Shown here: positions 15,001 to 21,000 of the stretch, in pieces
Layout: every line of letters begins with the position of its first letter
Position numbering within the stretch: the first letter of the stretch is position 1
Assembly: GCA_963804995.1 (NCBI GenBank)
Contig: CAWDSK010000006.1
Span: 1,568,001-1,632,000 of the forward strand
Source: an uncultured Acidobacteriota bacterium
Lineage (GTDB): Bacteria; Acidobacteriota; Terriglobia; UBA7540
Reading direction: 5' to 3'
Length of the DNA stretch: 64,000 bases
Position numbers: made by a program

Positions 15001-18000
15001 CTTCCCTCCGAGTGATCCTAGCCACCCATCCGATTTCGGAATCTCCCTAAGCATCCCTTCTGTAAGTCCCTCAGCCCAAATCACTAGCTGCGGGAGGAGC
15101 TCTCAAGACAACACTTTTGGGCACCGTCGCCGACAGGCCCCAGCATCGCAAGCAGACCCAGTGCCAAGGGTTAAATCATAAGTTTCTTAAAGAATCTCTT
15201 GAGGATCGCACCGACCGAGGGCATTATAACTCTCCAAGCGCATGGAGGATAAATTTTTTTTACCCTCAGCAAAAGCGGTAGATACCTCACGCCAAGACTT
15301 AGTTAGAAACTCCTAAGAACAATTTTTGCCGCTCTTTTATCATACGAGTGTCAATGGATCCAGGTTTCACCGTGATGACCCCAACCCCTTTATCTTGTCA
15401 GCACCACCCCGTCGCTCGGCGCGCCACCCCTCCTCATCTGAGGCAGGGAGCCTTAAAGCGGAACTCCCCTCCTGATTTAGGAGGGGTGGCGCGCCGAGCG
15501 ACGGGGTGGTTACCGGCAGCGCTCCGAGCGCCAGGGTGGTTACCGGCGGTACCCCGGGGGCCGGGGGGGTTGTGCGACCCTGCCCGGCCCTGAATCCACA
15601 AGTATTGGGCACGCCTCGGTGTCACCGCTGGTTAGCCGGCAAGTGCCATGTCAACAATTACATATGAAGTTTCTTGAAGAGTCTTTCGGGAATCGCACCG
15701 ACCAGGAGCATTATCACTCCCCAAAACCAGGGAAGATAAACAGTGTTCTTTCCCCGCAGCACGGCCCCGTAGATACCCCGCGCCACGGCCTGGGGAGAGG
15801 CGACTAAGAACAATTTTTGCCGCCCATATATCATTCGAGTGTCGACGAATCCAGGTTTCACGGTGATCACTTTAACTCCGGCGTGGTAAAGCCGGTTACG
15901 CAGGCCCTGAAGATAAGTCGTCAGGCCGCCCTTGGCCGAGCCATACAGGTAATTGCTCTGGCGGCCGCGGTCGCCGGCCACGGAAGAAATTGCGCAGATA
16001 AATCCCTGGCGCTTCTGCTCAAAGTGATTGGCAAGCACGTTGAGGGCGAGGACGGAGCCGGTAAAGTTTGTGTCCAGAATTCGGCGCGCTTCGGCGAGAT
16101 TGTCTTGCGCCTGCGCCTGATCGCCCAAATAGCCGACGCACAGCACCGCTCCCCCGAGTGCACCTCCGGCTTGTGCCAGGCAGGCCTTCAGCGTAGATTC
16201 CATCCCGTCGAAGTCCAGCACATCGAAACTTTGGGCGTGGGCGCTCACCCCGTGGCGCAGGTTCAGATCCGCCGCGAGGGCTTGCAGTTCTTCAAGGTCG
16301 CGGCCGGCCAGGATAAGATCGTAGCGGTGCGAGGCGAACTCCGCCGCCAGGGCCCGGCCAATGCCCGAAGTCGCACCCAGGATCAGAACAGTAGGCATAA
16401 GAGTACCTTTTGGATTGCCGATTTTCGATTGTCGATTTTCGATTGTCGATTGATGTAGAGGCGGCGGCATTCATCCCGATCTGATCGGGACGCCGCCATA
16501 TGGCGAGGTAAACTCGCCGCTACGTCAATCGGAAATCGTCAATCGAAAATCGACAATCAAACAATCCCCACCCTCCGCGCCTGCGAGGACGACATCAGCC
16601 TTTGCGGGTCCAATTTGCGCTGCATGCTTCGAAACTCCTCGAGTTTGGGATACATGACCGCAAAATCCGCAGCGCGCACGACGGCGTCTTTTGCCAGGTA
16701 AATCCTGCCCCCGTGATCCAAAGTCATGCGGTTGAGCTCGTGCAGGAAGGGGCGAAGTCCCGAGGCCACGGGAATATCCAGGGCCAGGGTGTAACCGCGC
16801 AGTGGAAACGAAAGCAGGCCGGGGTCGCCATCGCCAAACCGTTTCAGGACCGCCAGGAACGAGGCGCGGCCGGAGCGGGCCAGCCGGTTGAGGATGGTGC
16901 GCAGGCCTTCCCTCCCACTCGCCTGGGGCAGCGCGATCTGGTACTGCACAAAGCCGCGCTTGCCGTACATCCGGTTCCACTGCAGGATCGCATCGAGGGG
17001 ATAGAAAAATTTCTCAAAGCTCACAAGCTGCTTCGCGACACTGCGGTGCAGAGCGTAGTAGGTGGCGTTAAATGCCTTCACGCTGAGGCTGTTCAAAGCC
17101 ATCGCAGGAAAATCAAAAGGAAGGTTCCAGCGGGGCCCGGCGGGGAAGGCAAGTGGAGCCCGAACGCGCTTCGGAAGCTCAGCCGCCGGGGCATGATTGC
17201 CGCGCATCAGAACGCTGCGGCCCATGGCTTGGCCAGTGGTGAGGCCGTCAATCCACGCCACGGAGTATTGGTAGCGCTCGTCAGACTCCTCCATCGTGAC
17301 CAGGGCGTCCTCGAGGTTCCGGGCCCGGTGATAGTCCACCCACACGAAGGCGGAATCAACTCGCCGCAGGTCGAGCCGGGCCGTCAGGATGGCGCCCGTC
17401 AGACCCATGCCGCCCACCGTGGCCCAGAAGATTTCGGCATGGGAGGTGGGAGAGCAGAGCAGAACTTCGCCCGTGGGAACCAGGAGTTGGAAATCCCGCA
17501 CAAAATTCGAAAAGGATCCATCCTTGTGGTGATTCTTGCCATGGATGTCGGCGGCGATGGCTCCGCCTACGGTCACGAACTTGGTCCCCGGCGTGACCGG
17601 CAGAAACCAGCCGCGCGGCAAAAAATACTGAATGATTTCCGCCAGGCTTACTCCGCTTTCACATTCAAGCACACCGGTGGAAGCGTCAAAGGCGAGAAAT
17701 CGGTTCAGTTGCCCATGCCCGATCACGCCCGTATTTTCATTGAGCGCCGCATCGCCATAACTGCGCCCCAGGCCGCGCGAAATGTAGGAGGGCTCAAGAC
17801 CTGACCCGAGCGTAGCGGCCACCTCACTGCGCTTCTCCGGCCGAAAGACGTGGCACGACTCCACCGGATATCGGCCCCAGCCGGAAAGCGCTTTGGTTTC
17901 GAATGTAGGGGACATGGGCAGTCAGCTATCAGCTTTCAGCTATCAGCTTTCAGCGGTCAGCGGTCAGCGGTCAGCTTTCAGCTCTCAGCTATCAGCTCTC

Positions 18001-21000
18001 AGCTCTCAGCGTGTTACACAGAGTCTCGTGCTTTCCGAGAAGTTGAAATCATAGCCCTCTCCGAGGGGAGAGGGTGGACCGCCGCCGGCGTTCTCATCAG
18101 CCGGGGCGGGACGGGTGAGGGGTTACTTCACCACCCGATGCGCGGACCCGCACCCAAACAAGAACCATAGCCCTCTCCGAGGGGAGAGGGTGGACCGCCG
18201 CCGGCGTTTTCATCAGCCGGGGCGGGACGGGTGAGGGGTTACTTCACCACCCGATGAACGGACCCGCACCTATCCCTCAGCTCTCAGCGGTCGCGCGCCG
18301 GCTTTCACTTTTCCCAGGAGGGTGGCGAGCATGCGCTTCACTTCGACAACGTCCTCTGTAAGTTGATGGAACACCTCATCATTAAGATAGCGCAGGTCAT
18401 GTGACAGGAGCAGATGGTATTCCAATTCGCTCGCTGAACCCATCGCCATCTGAAGGAATCGACCGAACTCCGGGTCGCCACCTCTGCCACAGCCTTCCGA
18501 AATGTTCGCAGGCACGGAACCAGCCGCGCGGCGCAACTGGCTCGTCAGGGTAAAGAGCTCCTCCTTTGGGAATTTCCGTGTCTCCTTGTATACGGCCAAG
18601 ACCAAGGCGTGACTCTTCTCCCAGACCTTGAGGTTCTTGAAATCCTGTATCGCGATCCCCCAATGCATTGACCTCGAACGGACAATGTAACCAAGCTGAA
18701 AGCTGAGAGCTTATAGCTGAAAGCTGAAAGCTGATAGCTGAAAGCTGATAGCTGATAGCTGATAGCTGAAAGCTGATAGCTGATAGCTAAAGATAAATGA
18801 TCAAAATCACCGATGCCGCCCATATCAGCACGACGGAAAGCAATACTGGGTCTGTAAATAGAGCCCGCGTGGGATTTCCGCCCTCCTCCTGGTTGTGAAC
18901 AAGATGGAGATAGCGGAAGATCCCAAACAGCACAAAGGGGATGGTGATTTCCAGGCGCTTACCCGGAAACTTGGCTTGCACGTCGGGCGACAGCGTGTAG
19001 AGCGCATACGATACGACCGTTGAGGCCGTGACAATGCCAATCAACTGATCCAGGAAGTAGGGGGTATAGGTCGCCAGAATGGCACGATGGTCGGAGGCAC
19101 GATCGCCCAGTAACACCAGTTCATGCCGGCGTTTGCTGAGGGCAATGAACAGCGCCAGCAGAGTCGTGCACACAATCAACCAGGGAGAGATGGCCACGCG
19201 AATAACCAGGCCCCCGGCAATCACTCGAAACAAAAAGCCGGCCGCCACGATGAACACATCCAGAAGCGCAATTCTCTTGAGGAAAGTGGAATAGAGGGCA
19301 TTGATGGCGAGGTAAGCCACCGCCACGGCGAAGAAGCTGTGATTCAGCCGCCAGGCCTCGGCCAGACCGCCGGCTGCCAGTAAGACTCCCACCACGCCTG
19401 CCGTTCTGGCGCTGATGCGGCCTGAGGCAATGGGCCGGAGCTTCTTTGTAGGATGGTGACGGTCCTCGGGGGCGTCGAGAATGTCGTTCAGAACGTAGGC
19501 GGCGCTCGAGATCGCGCAGAAAACCAGCGCGGCCAGCATCACCTGCCGGCAGCGGTCCCAACGCGTAAGGCTTTGCGAAAAAATAAGGGCGGCAAAGATG
19601 AATCCGTTTTTGACCCACTGCTGCGGGCGCAAGGTTTCGATCAGCGCCTTAAGCGTGGCATTCTGGCTGCGGGCCACGGTCTCGGCAGGCAGCGAAGTTG
19701 TGGGTGAATCCATCCAGACTCCCCAAGTCACAACTTAGATTGAAGTACAAGCCGGAGCGTCCTCGCGGCCCATGCAAATTCAGGTTAGCTGAACGATGCG
19801 GGATATTCAACGCGAATCGGTTCGCAGATGGATTTCACCACAGAGTTTACGGAGCAATCGTAGCGCGGTCCTCCGCCGTTGAGGTCCGCGGCTCTTGATG
19901 CGCATGAACCCCAAATCTCCACGCCCGCAACCGTAGCGCGGTCCTCCGCCGTTGGGGTCCGCGGTTCTTCCTTTGGCGAGATTTGGGGTGAGACCCGCAA
20001 GCGGGAAATCTGCAAATCCGGCTCAACGAGGGGGAAGGAAATCGGGCCCGGCATCCGGGTCCGCTGCGACTAAAATTTCATAGTCCCACGATTTTTTGTC
20101 AATGTGGGACATGTCCCACTTGTTGCTCTCCGCGGGGCATAGCGAGCGAGGTCCCACTTATTTCCCCAACTCCCTACGTTTTTCACCATGCCTTTTCGTC
20201 AACGGCTCCACCGCGCTGCTACCTGCTTCTCTCAGTGGTCTCTGTGCGCTCTGTGGTGAAGCTCTTCTTGGTTAGCCCAGGACGATCAGGGGATCATCCA
20301 GGTCAGCCAGTAAGCTTGCGCGAAGGCAATCAAGCTGAGCAGAAGTGCCAGCAGCAGGCTGTGGAAGAACGTGGAGCGCAGCACCTCTCCTTCATGCCCC
20401 ACCAAGCCCACGGTGGTCACACCCACTGCAATGTTCTGCGGAGAGATCATCTTTCCGGCTACAGCTCCGGAAGAATTGGTGGCGGCCAACAGGATCGGGT
20501 TCACACCGATCTGGTGAGCCGCGGCCACCTGAAGATTCCCGAAGAGGAGGTTGGCGGAAGTATCGCTGCCGCTCAGGAAGCAGGCAACCCAGCCCAGAAA
20601 TCCGCTAACCAGCGGGAAGAGTCTTCCCAACCCCGCCAAGGACGCGCCCAGGGTGAAGGCCATGCCGGAGTAGTTGTACAAGTAGGCGAGCGCGACGATC
20701 AGCCCCACCGTCAACCCTGGCTTCTGGAGTTGCCGCAGAGTCTTCCACCCTGAATTCACAACGACGCTGAAAGGGGTTCGAAAAAGCAAGGCGGTAAGGA
20801 TCATCGCCGTAAGTGCGCCGGTCCCCGCCGCCAGAAGCTGAAACGAGTAGATGGCGGCGTAGGGCTTCTGGTAAAGCGTGATAAAAATCTCATTGTGCAG
20901 ATGAGGAATCGGAATGGCGGTTTGGGCAACGGAAAAGAGTTTGAAATAACTCCAGACAATCATCACGCCCGCCAGCAGCACCCAGGGCGCCCACGCGGCC

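What a model noticed while it worked through the whole genome (the two positions that open the first line are those of the whole stretch)
17921..18791. IVS-like cassettes: S23p four-helix-bundle genes inside heptamer-repeat stem-loops, inserted within operons
The 14 genes of the '23S rRNA intervening-sequence protein' family (S23p, the fold of the DGR accessory protein Avd) lie not in rRNA but in spacers between protein genes, 12 of them between co-directional genes (e.g. HoxH|HoxY, MacB ATPase|permease, sigma54 regulator|kinase), and at least 11 are enclosed by a long stem whose arms are tandem heptamer repeats and their complement, with a different heptamer for each S23p lineage; the same heptamers make up half of the 379 ORF-less heptamer arrays scattered through the genome. 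I read them as mobile 'operon-riding' cassettes equivalent to the RNase III-excised intervening sequences of 23S rRNA, in which each S23p variant is the trans-acting partn [...]
Evidence so far: Call 72: 12 of 14 PF05635 genes have both neighbours on their own strand (g00245, g05571 have one). Calls 73, 79 (RNAduplex of upstream vs downstream flank against 30 shuffles): g00245 -104 vs -56+-5.5 kcal (66 pairs, GGGAACA units), g00473 -65 vs -39, g00577 -66 vs -36 (GGGAYAC), g05006 -55 vs -26 (GGATTTT), g05571 -46 vs -31, g04418 -39 vs -22 (GTCCGTT), g02240 -42 vs -32 (CAAAAGG); call 80: g05764 arms C6:1585921-1586012 / 1586706-1586791 (CAGCTAT) -129 kcal, g05386 also paired; call 129: g05226 and g05564 have complementary arrays when read directly; g01897, g01900 have no stem. 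Arms travel with the ORF: the two stem-bearing protein pairs >70% identical share their unit (g00245/g05571 74 [...]
(Added by a program. Inside this text positions count along the whole contig: contig position 1,568,001 is position 1 of the stretch shown here. "Call 12" and the like, gene names such as g00115 and contig names such as C1 are that model's own, and its searches are not shown. The text may have been shortened before it was handed on; [...] marks where a part breaks off. The agent that wrote the report below was given it as the finding of a first reader that could run no searches.)

Follow-up and report, generated by a model that had tools for sequence, protein, structure and literature searches.

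The report
Mobile hairpin-armed gene cassette in operon
A small gene of the "ribosomal-RNA intervening sequence" family, bracketed by mirror-image runs of a 7-base repeat, sits between two cell-wall genes of a peat-soil bacterium; relatives show that such cassettes come, go, change place and decay into empty hairpins, which ties together three old puzzles: rRNA intervening sequences, a large protein family of unknown function, and the excess of 7-base repeats in bacteria.

Summary
At window 17922-18792, on the minus strand, a 132-aa PF05635/TIGR02436 gene lies between inverted arrays of 14 and 12.7 CAGCTNT units. The arms are 92 nt and 88% complementary. The cassette fills the spacer between a DPPR-synthase gene and dprE1.

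Same-genus genomes show it is a come-and-go unit. The same junction is empty (8 nt), holds an ORF-less hairpin with a relic of the gene's 3' end, or holds another S23p lineage. The closest S23p relatives, with the same unit, sit at three other junctions, one of which is empty here.

The gene is under purifying selection (dN/dS 0.04-0.18). The 23S rRNA gene of this genome carries an ORF-less heptamer-armed insertion, and the published Coxiella IVS has heptamer repeats before its S23p ORF, so kinship with rRNA intervening sequences is supported.

These were not supported:
- selection for RNA pairing (no G-U excess, no arm-to-arm covariation);
- the "half of all arrays" argument, which does not beat a random draw;
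- target-site duplications.

RNase III cleavage and S23p-heptamer binding remain untested. This scan has noted the same design in at least 85 other genomes. My five literature searches found no general description. A second small gene family (GxxExxY nuclease) uses the same design with 8-base units.

The parts
18693..18792 (-). 5' arm of the cassette in gene direction. It has about 14 tandem CAGCTNT units and begins at the stop codon of the upstream gene, overlapping it.
   Evidence: TRF gives period 7, 14.4 copies, 87% matches. It is inverted repeat I1 with 17922-18013. The junction was read in gene direction.
18270..18668 (-). S23p / four-helix-bundle gene of 132 aa. The family's usual start codon reads ATA here, and an ATG seven codons upstream opens the frame.
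   Evidence: PF05635 E 1.7e-38 and TIGR02436 E 2.3e-37. Solved relatives are 2gsc (E 1.7e-18) and 2rld. dN/dS against orthologues is 0.06-0.10. The start was compared with relatives.
18050..18270 (.). Two tandem copies of a 116-nt dispersed repeat nested between the ORF and the 3' arm. This is a secondary insertion and not part of the cassette proper.
   Evidence: TRF gives period 116, 1.9 copies, 97%. The repeat has 395 blastn HSPs in the genome on both strands. It is absent from the related cassettes. A terminator-like hairpin lies at 18074-18055(-).
17922..18010 (-). 3' arm, about 12.7 units complementary to the 5' arm. It ends 6 nt before the dprE1 start codon.
18787..19731 (-). Upstream host gene: decaprenyl-phosphate phosphoribosyltransferase (UbiA family).
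   Evidence: PF01040 E 6.9e-25; NF008977 291 bits against a cut-off of 234.
16557..17915 (-). Downstream host gene: a DprE1-like FAD oxidase.
   Evidence: NF053785 495.5 bits (cut-off 500, so just under); PF01565.
16408..16558 (.). ORF-less hairpin of 7/14-nt units in the next spacer, between dprE1 and the DprE2-like SDR gene.
   Evidence: TRF arrays at 16408-16452 and 16523-16558 have complementary 14-nt units.
15658..16470 (-). DprE2-like short-chain dehydrogenase, the third gene of the operon. The first listed codons translate the repeat array, so the true start probably lies further down.
   Evidence: NF005489 295 bits; NF053786 174 bits, below its cut-off of 250. ORF translation.

Best explanation
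This is a small selfish palindromic element of the kind known as an ORF-bearing intervening sequence of 23S rRNA, lodged here in an mRNA operon instead of an rRNA gene. Its parts are an S23p gene with its own ribosome-binding site and two inverted ends, each a tandem array of one heptamer (core CAGC, two to three free positions).

Shown here:
1. The gene and both arms travel together between spacers of co-transcribed genes within a genus.
2. The element can be absent from a site, leaving 8 nt.
3. It decays by internal deletion into ORF-less hairpins that keep the arms.
4. The arrays grow and shrink, from 4 to about 45 units.
5. ORF-less hairpins lie in either orientation, whereas intact genes are always co-directional with the upstream gene.
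6. The protein is under strong purifying selection.

Inferred:
- The gene has no promoter of its own and is expressed by read-through.
- In the transcript the arms pair into a duplex of about 90 bp that RNase III would cut, as it cuts rRNA intervening sequences. This would split the operon mRNA and release the S23p message.

Inferred more weakly:
- The arms serve mainly as repeated recognition sites, like the terminal inverted repeats of a transposon, for the S23p oligomer, which acts in the element's spread or upkeep. The reason is that the unit's core is conserved while pairing as such shows no sign of selection.
- The cutting and joining activity is unknown. It is not a classical DDE transposition.
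For: Anatomy and statistics of the stem.

Junction states in 13 same-genus loci:
- empty in G021 (8 nt) and G019 (33 nt);
- an unrelated 137 nt in G015 and G007;
- ORF-less hairpins with the same unit in G013, G001, G003, G008 and G017. The loops of G001 and G013 keep a relic of the S23p 3' end (scores 23.0 and 15.5 against shuffle maxima of 14.5 and 12.0); G003 is marginal and G008 and G017 show none;
- full cassettes of a CAGTNNT lineage in G023 and G006.

Same lineage elsewhere (S23p 67-87% identical, CAGCNNT arms): FtsX|FtsX, aminotransferase|PckA and MurG|MurC. These proteins form one clade with 86/87 support. The pattern is reciprocal: MurG|MurC is empty in this genome (27 nt), while G021 has it filled and has UbiA|DprE1 empty.

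Selection: dN/dS is 0.04-0.18. dS of S23p (1.36-1.91) is similar to dS of dprE1 (0.97-1.68), so the copies diverged along with the hosts and are not recent imports.

Orientation: 29 same against 24 opposite for ORF-less hairpins. The upstream gene is co-directional at 11 of 15 S23p loci by Pfam, with none opposite.

Across phyla: in 43 of 79 loci the gene's own flanks pair better than the 99th percentile of mismatched flanks, and period 7 is the best period in 63 of 79 upstream flanks. A T-N-A-G core on the sense strand occurs in 21 of 36 clean upstream units (shuffled units 6.9 +/- 2.2, maximum 14) and in 1 of 36 on the reverse complement.

rRNA link: a 100-nt heptamer-armed hairpin replaces a 6-nt loop in this genome's 23S gene (-65.3 kcal/mol, z -8.3). 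The Coxiella IVS has three to four GACAGAT repeats before its S23p ORF and is cut by RNase III at the first repeat (PMC4990558, passages).
Against: - No RNA data: no RNA run is listed, so transcription, stem formation and cleavage are inferred.
- Stem mismatches show no excess of G-U on the sense strand: 56 G-U against 80 A-C, with 203 other mismatches and 2198 Watson-Crick pairs in 64 loci; by locus the count is 19 against 19.
- An element's two arms match each other at the variable unit positions no better than they match arms of other elements of the family: 0.615 against 0.597, with 371 of 2000 permutations as high (19 elements picked by a pattern for this unit). Pairing itself is therefore not visibly selected.
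- No target-site duplication: 8 of 155 hairpins have a flanking direct repeat of 4 nt or more, against 7.3 +/- 2.7 with permuted partners.
- No recognisable recombinase is present in the cassette.
- Differential loss of several ancient paralogous cassettes, rather than movement, is not excluded. The host-gene tree is unresolved (2 of 11 inner branches supported) and dS is near saturation.
- The S23p-heptamer recognition idea has no direct test here, and a stronger form of it partly fell in an earlier check.
- The genomes are metagenome-assembled.
Confidence: 0.6

Rival explanations
1. Host-serving RNA punctuation. The stem and the S23p gene form a regulatory module kept by the host. The long stem is an RNase III site or a stabiliser that uncouples the expression of the two flanking genes, and S23p is an RNA-binding regulator of that processing. 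Mobility is incidental.
For: - Hairpins fill spacers of co-directional genes: 86 of 101 classified, against 73% of background gene pairs. They start a median of 10 nt after the stop codon and end a median of 22 nt before the next start codon.
- The stem is very stable as RNA.
- S23p is under purifying selection.
- RNase III cuts the analogous rRNA stems (PMC4990558).
Against: - The same junction works without any element in relatives, with spacers of 8 or 33 nt.
- Different, unrelated units occupy the same junction in different species.
- There is no G-U excess and no compensatory pattern.
- ORF-less hairpins show no orientation preference.
- Hairpins also occur in frame inside the dprE1 coding sequence of two relatives.
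Confidence: 0.15
2. Nothing moves. Heptamer arrays arise in place by replication slippage in any spacer. S23p genes are ordinary resident paralogues inherited from an ancestor that had them at many junctions, and today's pattern is differential loss.
For: - Arrays clearly expand and contract, from 4 to about 45 units.
- dS between S23p copies is as old as the species.
- The host tree is unresolved.
- Slippage has been proposed in print for the heptamer excess (PMC4692102, passages).
Against: - Slippage does not explain why the two arrays around a gene are inverted copies of the same unit in 43 of 79 loci across many phyla.
- It does not explain why one lineage with one unit is found at four junctions with only one or two copies per genome.
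- It does not explain how an ORF came to lie inside each spacer in the first place.
- Each junction must have been entered at least once.
Confidence: 0.1
3. Retroelement accessory. S23p acts like Avd of diversity-generating retroelements, as the partner of a reverse transcriptase, and the cassette spreads through an RNA copy.
For: - The family is homologous to Avd (weak NF033474 match; PMC10053308, passages).
- The genome holds 49 reverse-transcriptase matches.
- An RNase III-released stem-loop RNA would be a plausible template.
Against: - The Avd model scores 19.9 bits against a cut-off of 80.
- The reverse transcriptase in the window belongs to a group II intron, and about 38 of the 49 matches share its 528-aa frame.
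- The nearest reverse-transcriptase match to any S23p locus is about 7 kb away, by comparing the places.
- No template or variable repeat pair was seen.
Confidence: 0.05
4. Cargo cassette. The hairpin element moves by host or unknown functions, and S23p is merely a passenger with a function of its own (for example defence), like the gene of an integron cassette.
For: - A second small gene family (GxxExxY / PDDEXK_3) is bracketed by repeat-armed stems in 6 of 6 copies in this genome.
- Most hairpins carry no gene: of 171 pairs, 20 loops show any S23p similarity.
Against: - There is no match to 5027 defence models.
- The unit type follows the protein lineage across phyla: the T-N-A-G core occurs in 20 of 29 relatives against 1 of 7 paralogues in this genome. 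This is more than a passenger would need, although linkage alone could produce it.
Confidence: 0.1

Closest known systems
ORF-bearing intervening sequences (IVS) of 23S rRNA, as in Coxiella burnetii and Leptospira (PMC4990558, passages read; Ralph and McClelland 1993 as cited there)
   Same: Both have an S23p-family ORF in the loop of a stem made by terminal inverted repeats, with tandem heptamer repeats directly before the ORF. Both have been viewed as selfish, possibly mobile elements. Both are inserted into a transcribed gene without destroying it.
   Different: This element sits between protein-coding genes of an operon, not in helix 45 of 23S rRNA. Its arms are 90-100 nt of pure heptamer array, not a 28-bp stem. 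The ORF is under purifying selection, whereas the Coxiella ORF is reported as decaying and probably untranslated. RNase III excision is not shown here.
Dispersed heptamer repeats of bacteria: TAACTGA in Beggiatoaceae, Cyanobacteria and Bacteroidetes (PMC4679880); GGGAATC in Xanthomonas and GGGGAYT in Nostoc (PMC4692102); STRR of cyanobacteria (recalled, not read)
   Same: Both are intergenic tandem heptamers of two to dozens of units, close to gene ends, variable between near relatives, with a patchy phylogenetic spread. The reverse complement of TAACTGA fits the T-N-A-G unit type seen here.
   Different: Those papers treat direct repeats. In the passages I read, neither links them to S23p genes, and PMC4679880 contains no occurrence of '23S', 'S23' or 'four helix'. 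Here about two fifths of the arrays pair into hairpins: 171 pairs among 808 arrays.
Avd, the accessory protein of diversity-generating retroelements
   Same: It has the same four-helix-bundle fold family and forms pentamers in solved relatives (2gsc has 5 chains; PMC10053308 and PMC4990558 passages).
   Different: There is no adjacent reverse transcriptase and no template or variable repeats. The Avd model is far below its cut-off.
Miniature palindromic elements such as REPINs mobilised by RAYT transposases and the Rickettsia palindromic elements that sit in frame inside genes (recalled, not read here)
   Same: Both are short hairpin-forming elements dispersed in spacers, sometimes in frame inside coding sequence, with gene-less copies outnumbering gene-bearing ones.
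   Different: The ends here are tandem repeats of a short unit with at least 136 different units in one genome, not one conserved sequence. The only element-borne protein is a four-helix bundle, or a small PD-(D/E)XK protein in the sister design, and not a tyrosine transposase.

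Membership tests
PF05635 / TIGR02436 (23S rRNA intervening-sequence protein, four-helix-bundle protein) | Score above the curated cut-offs of the family models | tested here: met
   131.5 bits against 33.8 for PF05635, and 127.5 bits against 24 for TIGR02436.
PF05635 / TIGR02436 | The family's conserved residues are present | tested here: met
   In an alignment of 75 sequences, W16, Y27, F33, P34, E37, Q44, R47, S51, N55, I56, E58, G59, G77, S78 and E81 of the window protein carry the residue held by at least 85% of the rows.
23S rRNA intervening sequence (IVS) | Lies inside a 23S rRNA gene, replacing a helix tip | tested here: not met
   It lies between two protein genes. 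The genome's one 23S gene is on another contig.
23S rRNA intervening sequence (IVS) | Terminal inverted repeats that close a stem around the insert | tested here: met
   The arms are 92 nt at 88% complementarity, and the fold z-score is -17.6.
23S rRNA intervening sequence (IVS) | Excised from the transcript by RNase III | not testable with these tools
   No RNA run is listed.
23S rRNA intervening sequence (IVS) | S23p ORF in the loop, preceded by heptamer repeats (the Coxiella type) | tested here: met
   comparison with PMC4990558.
DGR accessory protein Avd | Score above the cut-off of NF033474, and an adjacent reverse transcriptase with template and variable repeats | tested here: not met
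   19.9 bits against a cut-off of 80. The neighbours are UbiA and DprE1. The nearest reverse transcriptase in the window, 16 kb away, is a group II intron protein.
Classical transposon or MITE with terminal inverted repeats | Terminal inverted repeats | tested here: met
Classical transposon or MITE with terminal inverted repeats | Target-site duplication | tested here: not met
   8 of 155 hairpins have a flanking direct repeat of 4 nt or more, against 7.3 +/- 2.7 for permuted partners. The arm boundaries are fuzzy, so short duplications could be missed. None is visible at the two filled/empty site pairs.
Classical transposon or MITE with terminal inverted repeats | A transposase, in the element or in an autonomous partner | tested here: inconclusive
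   The cassette holds only the S23p ORF. No search was made for a partner elsewhere in the genome.
Anti-phage defence gene | Match to a model of a known or candidate defence system | tested here: not met
   0 of 5027 PADLOC models matched at E up to 0.01.

The most novel reading that the evidence does not exclude
S23p proteins and, in a sister design, GxxExxY nucleases are the working proteins of a very widespread and undescribed class of transposase-less palindromic elements. Their ends are tandem arrays of a 7- or 8-base recognition unit: a conserved core such as T-N-A-G, read by the element's own oligomeric protein, plus free positions. These elements insert into any transcribed spacer, helix tip or even reading frame, and then decay into empty hairpins. 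On this reading, rRNA intervening sequences are the special case that was noticed first, and the unexplained excess of heptamer repeats in bacterial genomes is largely their debris.
Probability: 0.3. Interest if true: 0.9.

Novelty: new variant of a known kind. Interest (0 to 1): 0.7.

Why it matters
The function and origin of rRNA intervening sequences have been open since about 1990. The role of the very large S23p / four-helix-bundle family is also open: it is present in 29 of 29 genomes of this genus at 2-21 copies each. So is the reason why heptamer repeats are over-represented in bacteria (stated as open in PMC4692102).

This locus, with its relatives, offers one natural system in which all three meet. 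It also provides the clean filled, empty and decayed sites that an experiment needs: a cassette to mark, a cognate and a non-cognate repeat for binding assays, and an operon whose mRNA can be followed with and without RNase III.

It also matters for annotation. Hairpins of this kind split operons, sit inside genes in frame, and make repeat-derived false ORF starts (for example the first codons listed for the DprE2-like gene).

Tried and rejected
- RNA evidence: the look-up of sequencing runs listed no RNA holder, only two DNA runs with 7-8% of the words.
- Laying those two runs gave mostly short contigs from other repeat copies and other organisms. The many 'joints' between the two arms have sides under 30 nt at 85% likeness, so they cannot be assigned to this locus. 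No conclusion was drawn.
- Rfam: no family fits the cassette or the 116-nt repeat. The best hits were a chance-level speF match (18.2 bits, E 0.22) and mir-885. The only gathering-level hit in the window is the group II intron.
- Host-gene tree to count insertion events: it is unresolved, with 2 of 11 inner branches supported.
- Share of genome arrays carrying S23p units as evidence of partnership: rejected, because it equals a random draw (an earlier slow version timed out).
- G-U wobble test and arm-to-arm covariation test for RNA-level selection: both negative.
- Target-site duplication: none found.
- Promoter scan: 0 sigma-70-like sites in 17700-19000. This is consistent with read-through expression but is weak evidence for this phylum.
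- Defence-system models: no match.
- S23p relics in ORF-less loops of this genome: 20 of 171 loops match, but most of these are the S23p loci themselves or translated arrays. Only two short relics look real: C3:467742 with unit ACGGGAT and C6:1363919 with unit AAAAGGC.
- Literature: searches found no paper that links S23p genes in operons with heptamer-armed stems. One search was swamped by an unrelated acronym. Subscription journals are outside the library.

Full report
WHAT IS THERE. All genes of this stretch lie on the minus strand. In gene direction the order is as follows.
- A decaprenyl-phosphate phosphoribosyltransferase gene (18787..19731; NF008977, 291 bits).
- An array of about 14 CAGCTNT units that starts at that gene's stop codon (18693-18792).
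- A 132-aa ORF (18270..18668).
- Two tandem copies of a 116-nt repeat (18050-18270).
- An array of about 12.7 complementary units (17922-18010) that ends 6 nt before the start codon of a DprE1-like oxidase gene (16557..17915).
- A small ORF-less hairpin of 7/14-nt units (16408-16558).
- A DprE2-like dehydrogenase gene.

The ORF is a clear member of PF05635 / TIGR02436. Its solved relatives are the pentameric four-helix bundles 2gsc and 2rld. The arms are 92 nt long and 88% complementary. As sense RNA the 901 nt fold to -437.7 kcal/mol, against -331 +/- 6 for dinucleotide shuffles (z -17.6), and the arms close the structure.

THE GENOME. The window lies in a 7.55-Mb, 9-contig assembly of 58.5% G+C. 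The closest named records are titled Terriglobia / Acidobacteriota metagenome-assembled genomes.
- Period-7 tandem repeats are far more common than other periods: 1215 TRF rows against 144 for period 6 and 604 for period 8. They merge into 808 arrays of at least 3.5 copies with 136 canonical units.
- 673 of 808 arrays lie outside genes called by a simple codon-usage caller, although only 22% of the genome is non-coding by that caller.
- 171 of 808 arrays have an inverted partner within 2.5 kb, above the 99th percentile of random places. The median loop is 91 nt.
- Of the 155 hairpins with loops up to 900 nt, 54 were too far from a called gene and were dropped. Of the other 101, 86 lie between co-directional genes, 11 between convergent genes and 4 between divergent genes. 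The background of gene pairs is 2948, 620 and 467. By my own arithmetic this gives a chi-square of about 8.4 on 2 degrees of freedom.
- These hairpins start a median of 10 nt after the upstream stop codon and end a median of 22 nt before the next start codon.
- There are 15 PF05635 loci. 11 pass my stem criterion and a twelfth, which is truncated, has arms.
- The upstream neighbour is Pfam-verified and on the same strand at 11 of 15 loci, and is never verified on the opposite strand. Both neighbours are verified and co-directional at 7 of 15. 2 of 15 loci are convergent with the downstream gene.

THE CASSETTE COMES AND GOES. A DNA search of 40 relatives found the operon in same-genus genomes. 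I read the UbiA|DprE1 junction in 13 loci.
- It is 8 nt long in G021 and 33 nt in G019.
- In G015 and G007, which are the sister pair of this genome on the DprE1 tree, it holds an unrelated 137 nt without repeats.
- In G013, G001, G003, G008 and G017 it holds an ORF-less hairpin with the same CAGCNNT unit.
- In G023 and G006 it holds a full cassette with a related but different unit (CAGTNNT) and an S23p only 62% identical to ours.
- In G020 it holds an ORF-less hairpin of that second unit.
- The loops of the G001 and G013 hairpins keep 48 and 28 nt that align with the last codons of the S23p gene (scores 23.0 and 15.5; shuffled loops reach at most 14.5 and 12.0). G003 is marginal, and G008 and G017 show nothing. 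At least some empty hairpins are therefore cassettes that lost their gene by internal deletion.

The closest relatives of our S23p all carry CAGCNNT arms but lie elsewhere:
- between two FtsX-type permease genes (G015 at 87%, G012 at 74%);
- between an aminotransferase gene and pckA (G007 at 80%, G019 at 78%, G004 at 67%);
- between murG and murC (G021 at 81%, with 4 units on one side and about 45 on the other).

These seven proteins form one clade with 86/87 support. In this genome the murG|murC spacer is an ordinary 27 nt, and the other two junctions hold ORF-less hairpins of quite different units. The CAGTNNT lineage, too, is found at two junctions: UbiA|DprE1 and, in G005, FtsX|FtsX.

So gene and arms travel together, sites are filled and empty in a reciprocal pattern, and some spacers are hit repeatedly by different elements. 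The DprE1 tree is too poorly resolved (2 of 11 branches) to count events. Differential loss of old paralogues cannot be fully excluded, but every junction must have been entered at least once.

THE PROTEIN IS IN USE. dN/dS between cassette copies is 0.04-0.18. dS between our copy and those of G007, G019 and G021 (1.36-1.91) is close to dS of dprE1 between the same genomes (1.07-1.68). The lineage therefore seems to have diverged along with its hosts while changing place, and is not a recent import.

Fifteen positions are at least 85% conserved among 75 family members. Several are polar and spaced about one helical turn apart (Q44, R47, S51, N55, E58). I read this spacing as one face of a helix, which is an inference from spacing only. 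The related cassettes have purine-rich stretches a few bases before their start codons (read). No sigma-70-like promoter is seen in the cassette.

ACROSS PHYLA. Of the 80 best loci found with our protein in one genome per species, 79 had usable flanks. By their record titles they come from Acidobacteriota, Thermodesulfobacteriota, Chloroflexota, Planctomycetota, Bacteroidota, Gemmatimonadota, several candidate-phyla groups and others.
- In 43 of 79 loci the gene's own two flanks pair better than the 99th percentile of mismatched flank pairs. That control is harsh, because many loci share unit types.
- Period 7 is the best period between 4 and 12 in 63 of 79 upstream flanks, and period 8 in several Flavobacteriia.
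- Only 36 of 98 loci have a clean upstream array under a strict detector. In 21 of these the consensus unit contains T-N-A-G on the sense strand (shuffled units 6.9 +/- 2.2, maximum 14 in 1000), and 1 of 36 on the reverse complement.
- The motif occurs in 20 of 29 relatives of our protein but in only 1 of 7 paralogues in this genome, namely ours.
- So the unit type follows the protein lineage over very long distances, with a conserved core and free positions. The loci are related, so these counts overstate independence.

WHAT CONSTRAINS THE ARMS. Four tests bear on this.
1. If the stem were selected as sense-strand RNA, mismatches should favour G-U. In 64 loci with a stem I count 2198 Watson-Crick pairs, 56 G-U, 80 A-C and 203 other mismatches. 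By locus the count is 19 against 19. There is no such bias.
2. In 19 elements of the CAGCNNT family, picked by a pattern for this unit, an element's arms agree at the variable unit positions no better with each other (0.615) than with arms of other elements (0.597). 371 of 2000 permutations were as high. Complementarity is therefore a by-product of both arms being arrays of one unit family in opposite orientation.
3. 81 ORF-less hairpins lie between co-directional genes. 53 could be assigned to a unit with a known S23p orientation and 28 could not. The 53 lie 29 times in the gene's direction and 24 times against it. Intact S23p genes, by contrast, are always co-directional with the upstream gene. 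This fits orientation-blind insertion followed by loss of genes that cannot be expressed.
4. There is no target-site duplication.

Together these favour arms that act as repeated recognition sites at the ends of an element, over arms kept for their pairing. The pairing will still occur in any transcript.

LINK TO rRNA. The single 23S gene of this genome (contig 9) has about 100 extra nucleotides in place of a 6-nt hairpin loop at Rfam model positions of about 283-288. The insert is a hairpin whose 5' side is five AGTGGNN units (-65.3 kcal/mol, z -8.3). The family's two habitats thus occur side by side.

In print, the Coxiella IVS has three tandem GACAGAT repeats plus a degenerate one before its S23p ORF, with strain-variable number. 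RNase III cuts at the first repeat. The authors cite the old idea that the ORF may encode a mobility function (PMC4990558, passages).

Papers on TAACTGA repeats (PMC4679880, passages) and on GGGAATC / GGGGAYT repeats (PMC4692102, passages) describe dispersed heptamers. In what I read they make no link to this gene family, and the former contains no occurrence of '23S', 'S23' or 'four helix'.

A SISTER DESIGN. In the same window, 119-nt inverted arms built of 8-nt units (5490-5608 and 7032-7150) enclose a GxxExxY / PDDEXK_3 gene that has since been hit by an IS630-type element. The other five PDDEXK_3 genes of the genome are each flanked by stems of 8-10-nt units with scores of 39-64, where random places reach 26-45. 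One of these margins is narrow: the C1:265699 copy scores 45.0, equal to its control maximum. The design of a small gene inside tandem-repeat arms is therefore not peculiar to S23p, and one cargo has a nuclease fold.

MECHANISM AND RIVALS. My best reading is an IVS-type selfish palindromic cassette.
- Shown: movement as a unit, loss, decay, array slippage, orientation-dependent survival of the gene, and purifying selection.
- Inferred: read-through transcription and RNase III cleavage of the 90-bp duplex.
- Weakly inferred: recognition of the unit core by the S23p oligomer.

The rivals are a host-serving RNA module, pure in-place slippage with differential loss, a retroelement accessory, and a passenger gene. 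Each is weighed in its own section.

NOVELTY. The scan has reported this design before on other DNA: 90 findings in at least 85 genomes. My five literature searches found no general description of it. I file it as a new variant of a known kind, that is, intervening-sequence elements outside rRNA.

This locus adds:
- a reciprocal filled/empty pair of sites;
- gene relics inside orthologous empty hairpins;
- negative tests for RNA-level selection and for target duplications;
- an orientation contrast between gene-bearing and empty elements;
- a heptamer-armed insert in the same genome's 23S gene;
- a second cargo family.

Noticed in passing
window 5490-7150: 119-nt inverted arms (85% complementary) built of 8-nt CACCAAGA-type units enclose a GxxExxY / PDDEXK_3 gene (5560..6042 +). 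An IS630-type element (HTH plus DDE_3 ORFs, with its own 30-nt inverted ends at 5962-5991 and 6958-6987) is inserted at the end of that gene. The other five PDDEXK_3 genes of the genome are also flanked by stems of 8-10-nt tandem units, though one of them (C1:265699) only equals its random-place control. This is a sister design to the S23p cassettes with a nuclease-fold cargo.
   Followed up: partly
L122:1780-1885 (G000 contig 9, inside the 23S rRNA gene): About 100 nt replace a 6-nt loop of the Rfam LSU consensus near model position 285. The insert is a hairpin with five AGTGGNN units on its 5' side (-65.3 kcal/mol, z -8.3). It looks like an ORF-less intervening sequence with heptamer arms.
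   Followed up: partly
L020 and L021 (dprE1 of G017 and G020); a short remnant in L006 (G003): A heptamer hairpin of ATTCCGN / CGGAATN units is inserted in frame inside the dprE1 coding sequence, adding 43 and 42 residues after residues 252 and 254 of the window's protein. G003 keeps a 7-residue remnant, and 8 other genomes have none.
   Followed up: partly
window 18050-18270 and genome-wide: A 116-nt repeat with a G+C-rich hairpin has 395 blastn HSPs in the genome (23 of at least 95 nt) on both strands, and its 58-nt core is 95-100% identical in many same-genus genomes. Two tandem copies are nested in this cassette. Only 60 of the 395 HSPs lie within 300 nt of a heptamer array, so it is a separate element family.
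   Followed up: partly
window 34177-35980 (-): A group II intron (RF02005, 170 bits) with a 478-aa reverse-transcriptase ORF. The genome has 49 reverse-transcriptase matches, about 38 of them sharing one 528-aa frame. This was already reported by this scan (e1-7823278).
   Followed up: partly
window 33006-33072, 38278-38378 and 39914-39996: Further arrays of the same CAGCTNT family: a single array of 9.6 units, and a short hairpin of 7.7 plus 2.9 units. There is also an ORF-less hairpin of 8-nt CGCAGAGA units, the unit type that flanks PDDEXK_3 genes.
   Followed up: no
window 9778-9944 and 12661-12827: 167-nt inverted repeats (95% complementary), built of copies of a palindromic REP-like sequence, bracket a sulfatase-family gene (9937..12009 -). 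A paralogous sulfatase gene follows at 12899..15025.
   Followed up: no
G000 C1:617594-620172: Two S23p loci with the same ACGGGAT-type unit flank one histidine-kinase gene on both sides. The second copy is truncated.
   Followed up: no
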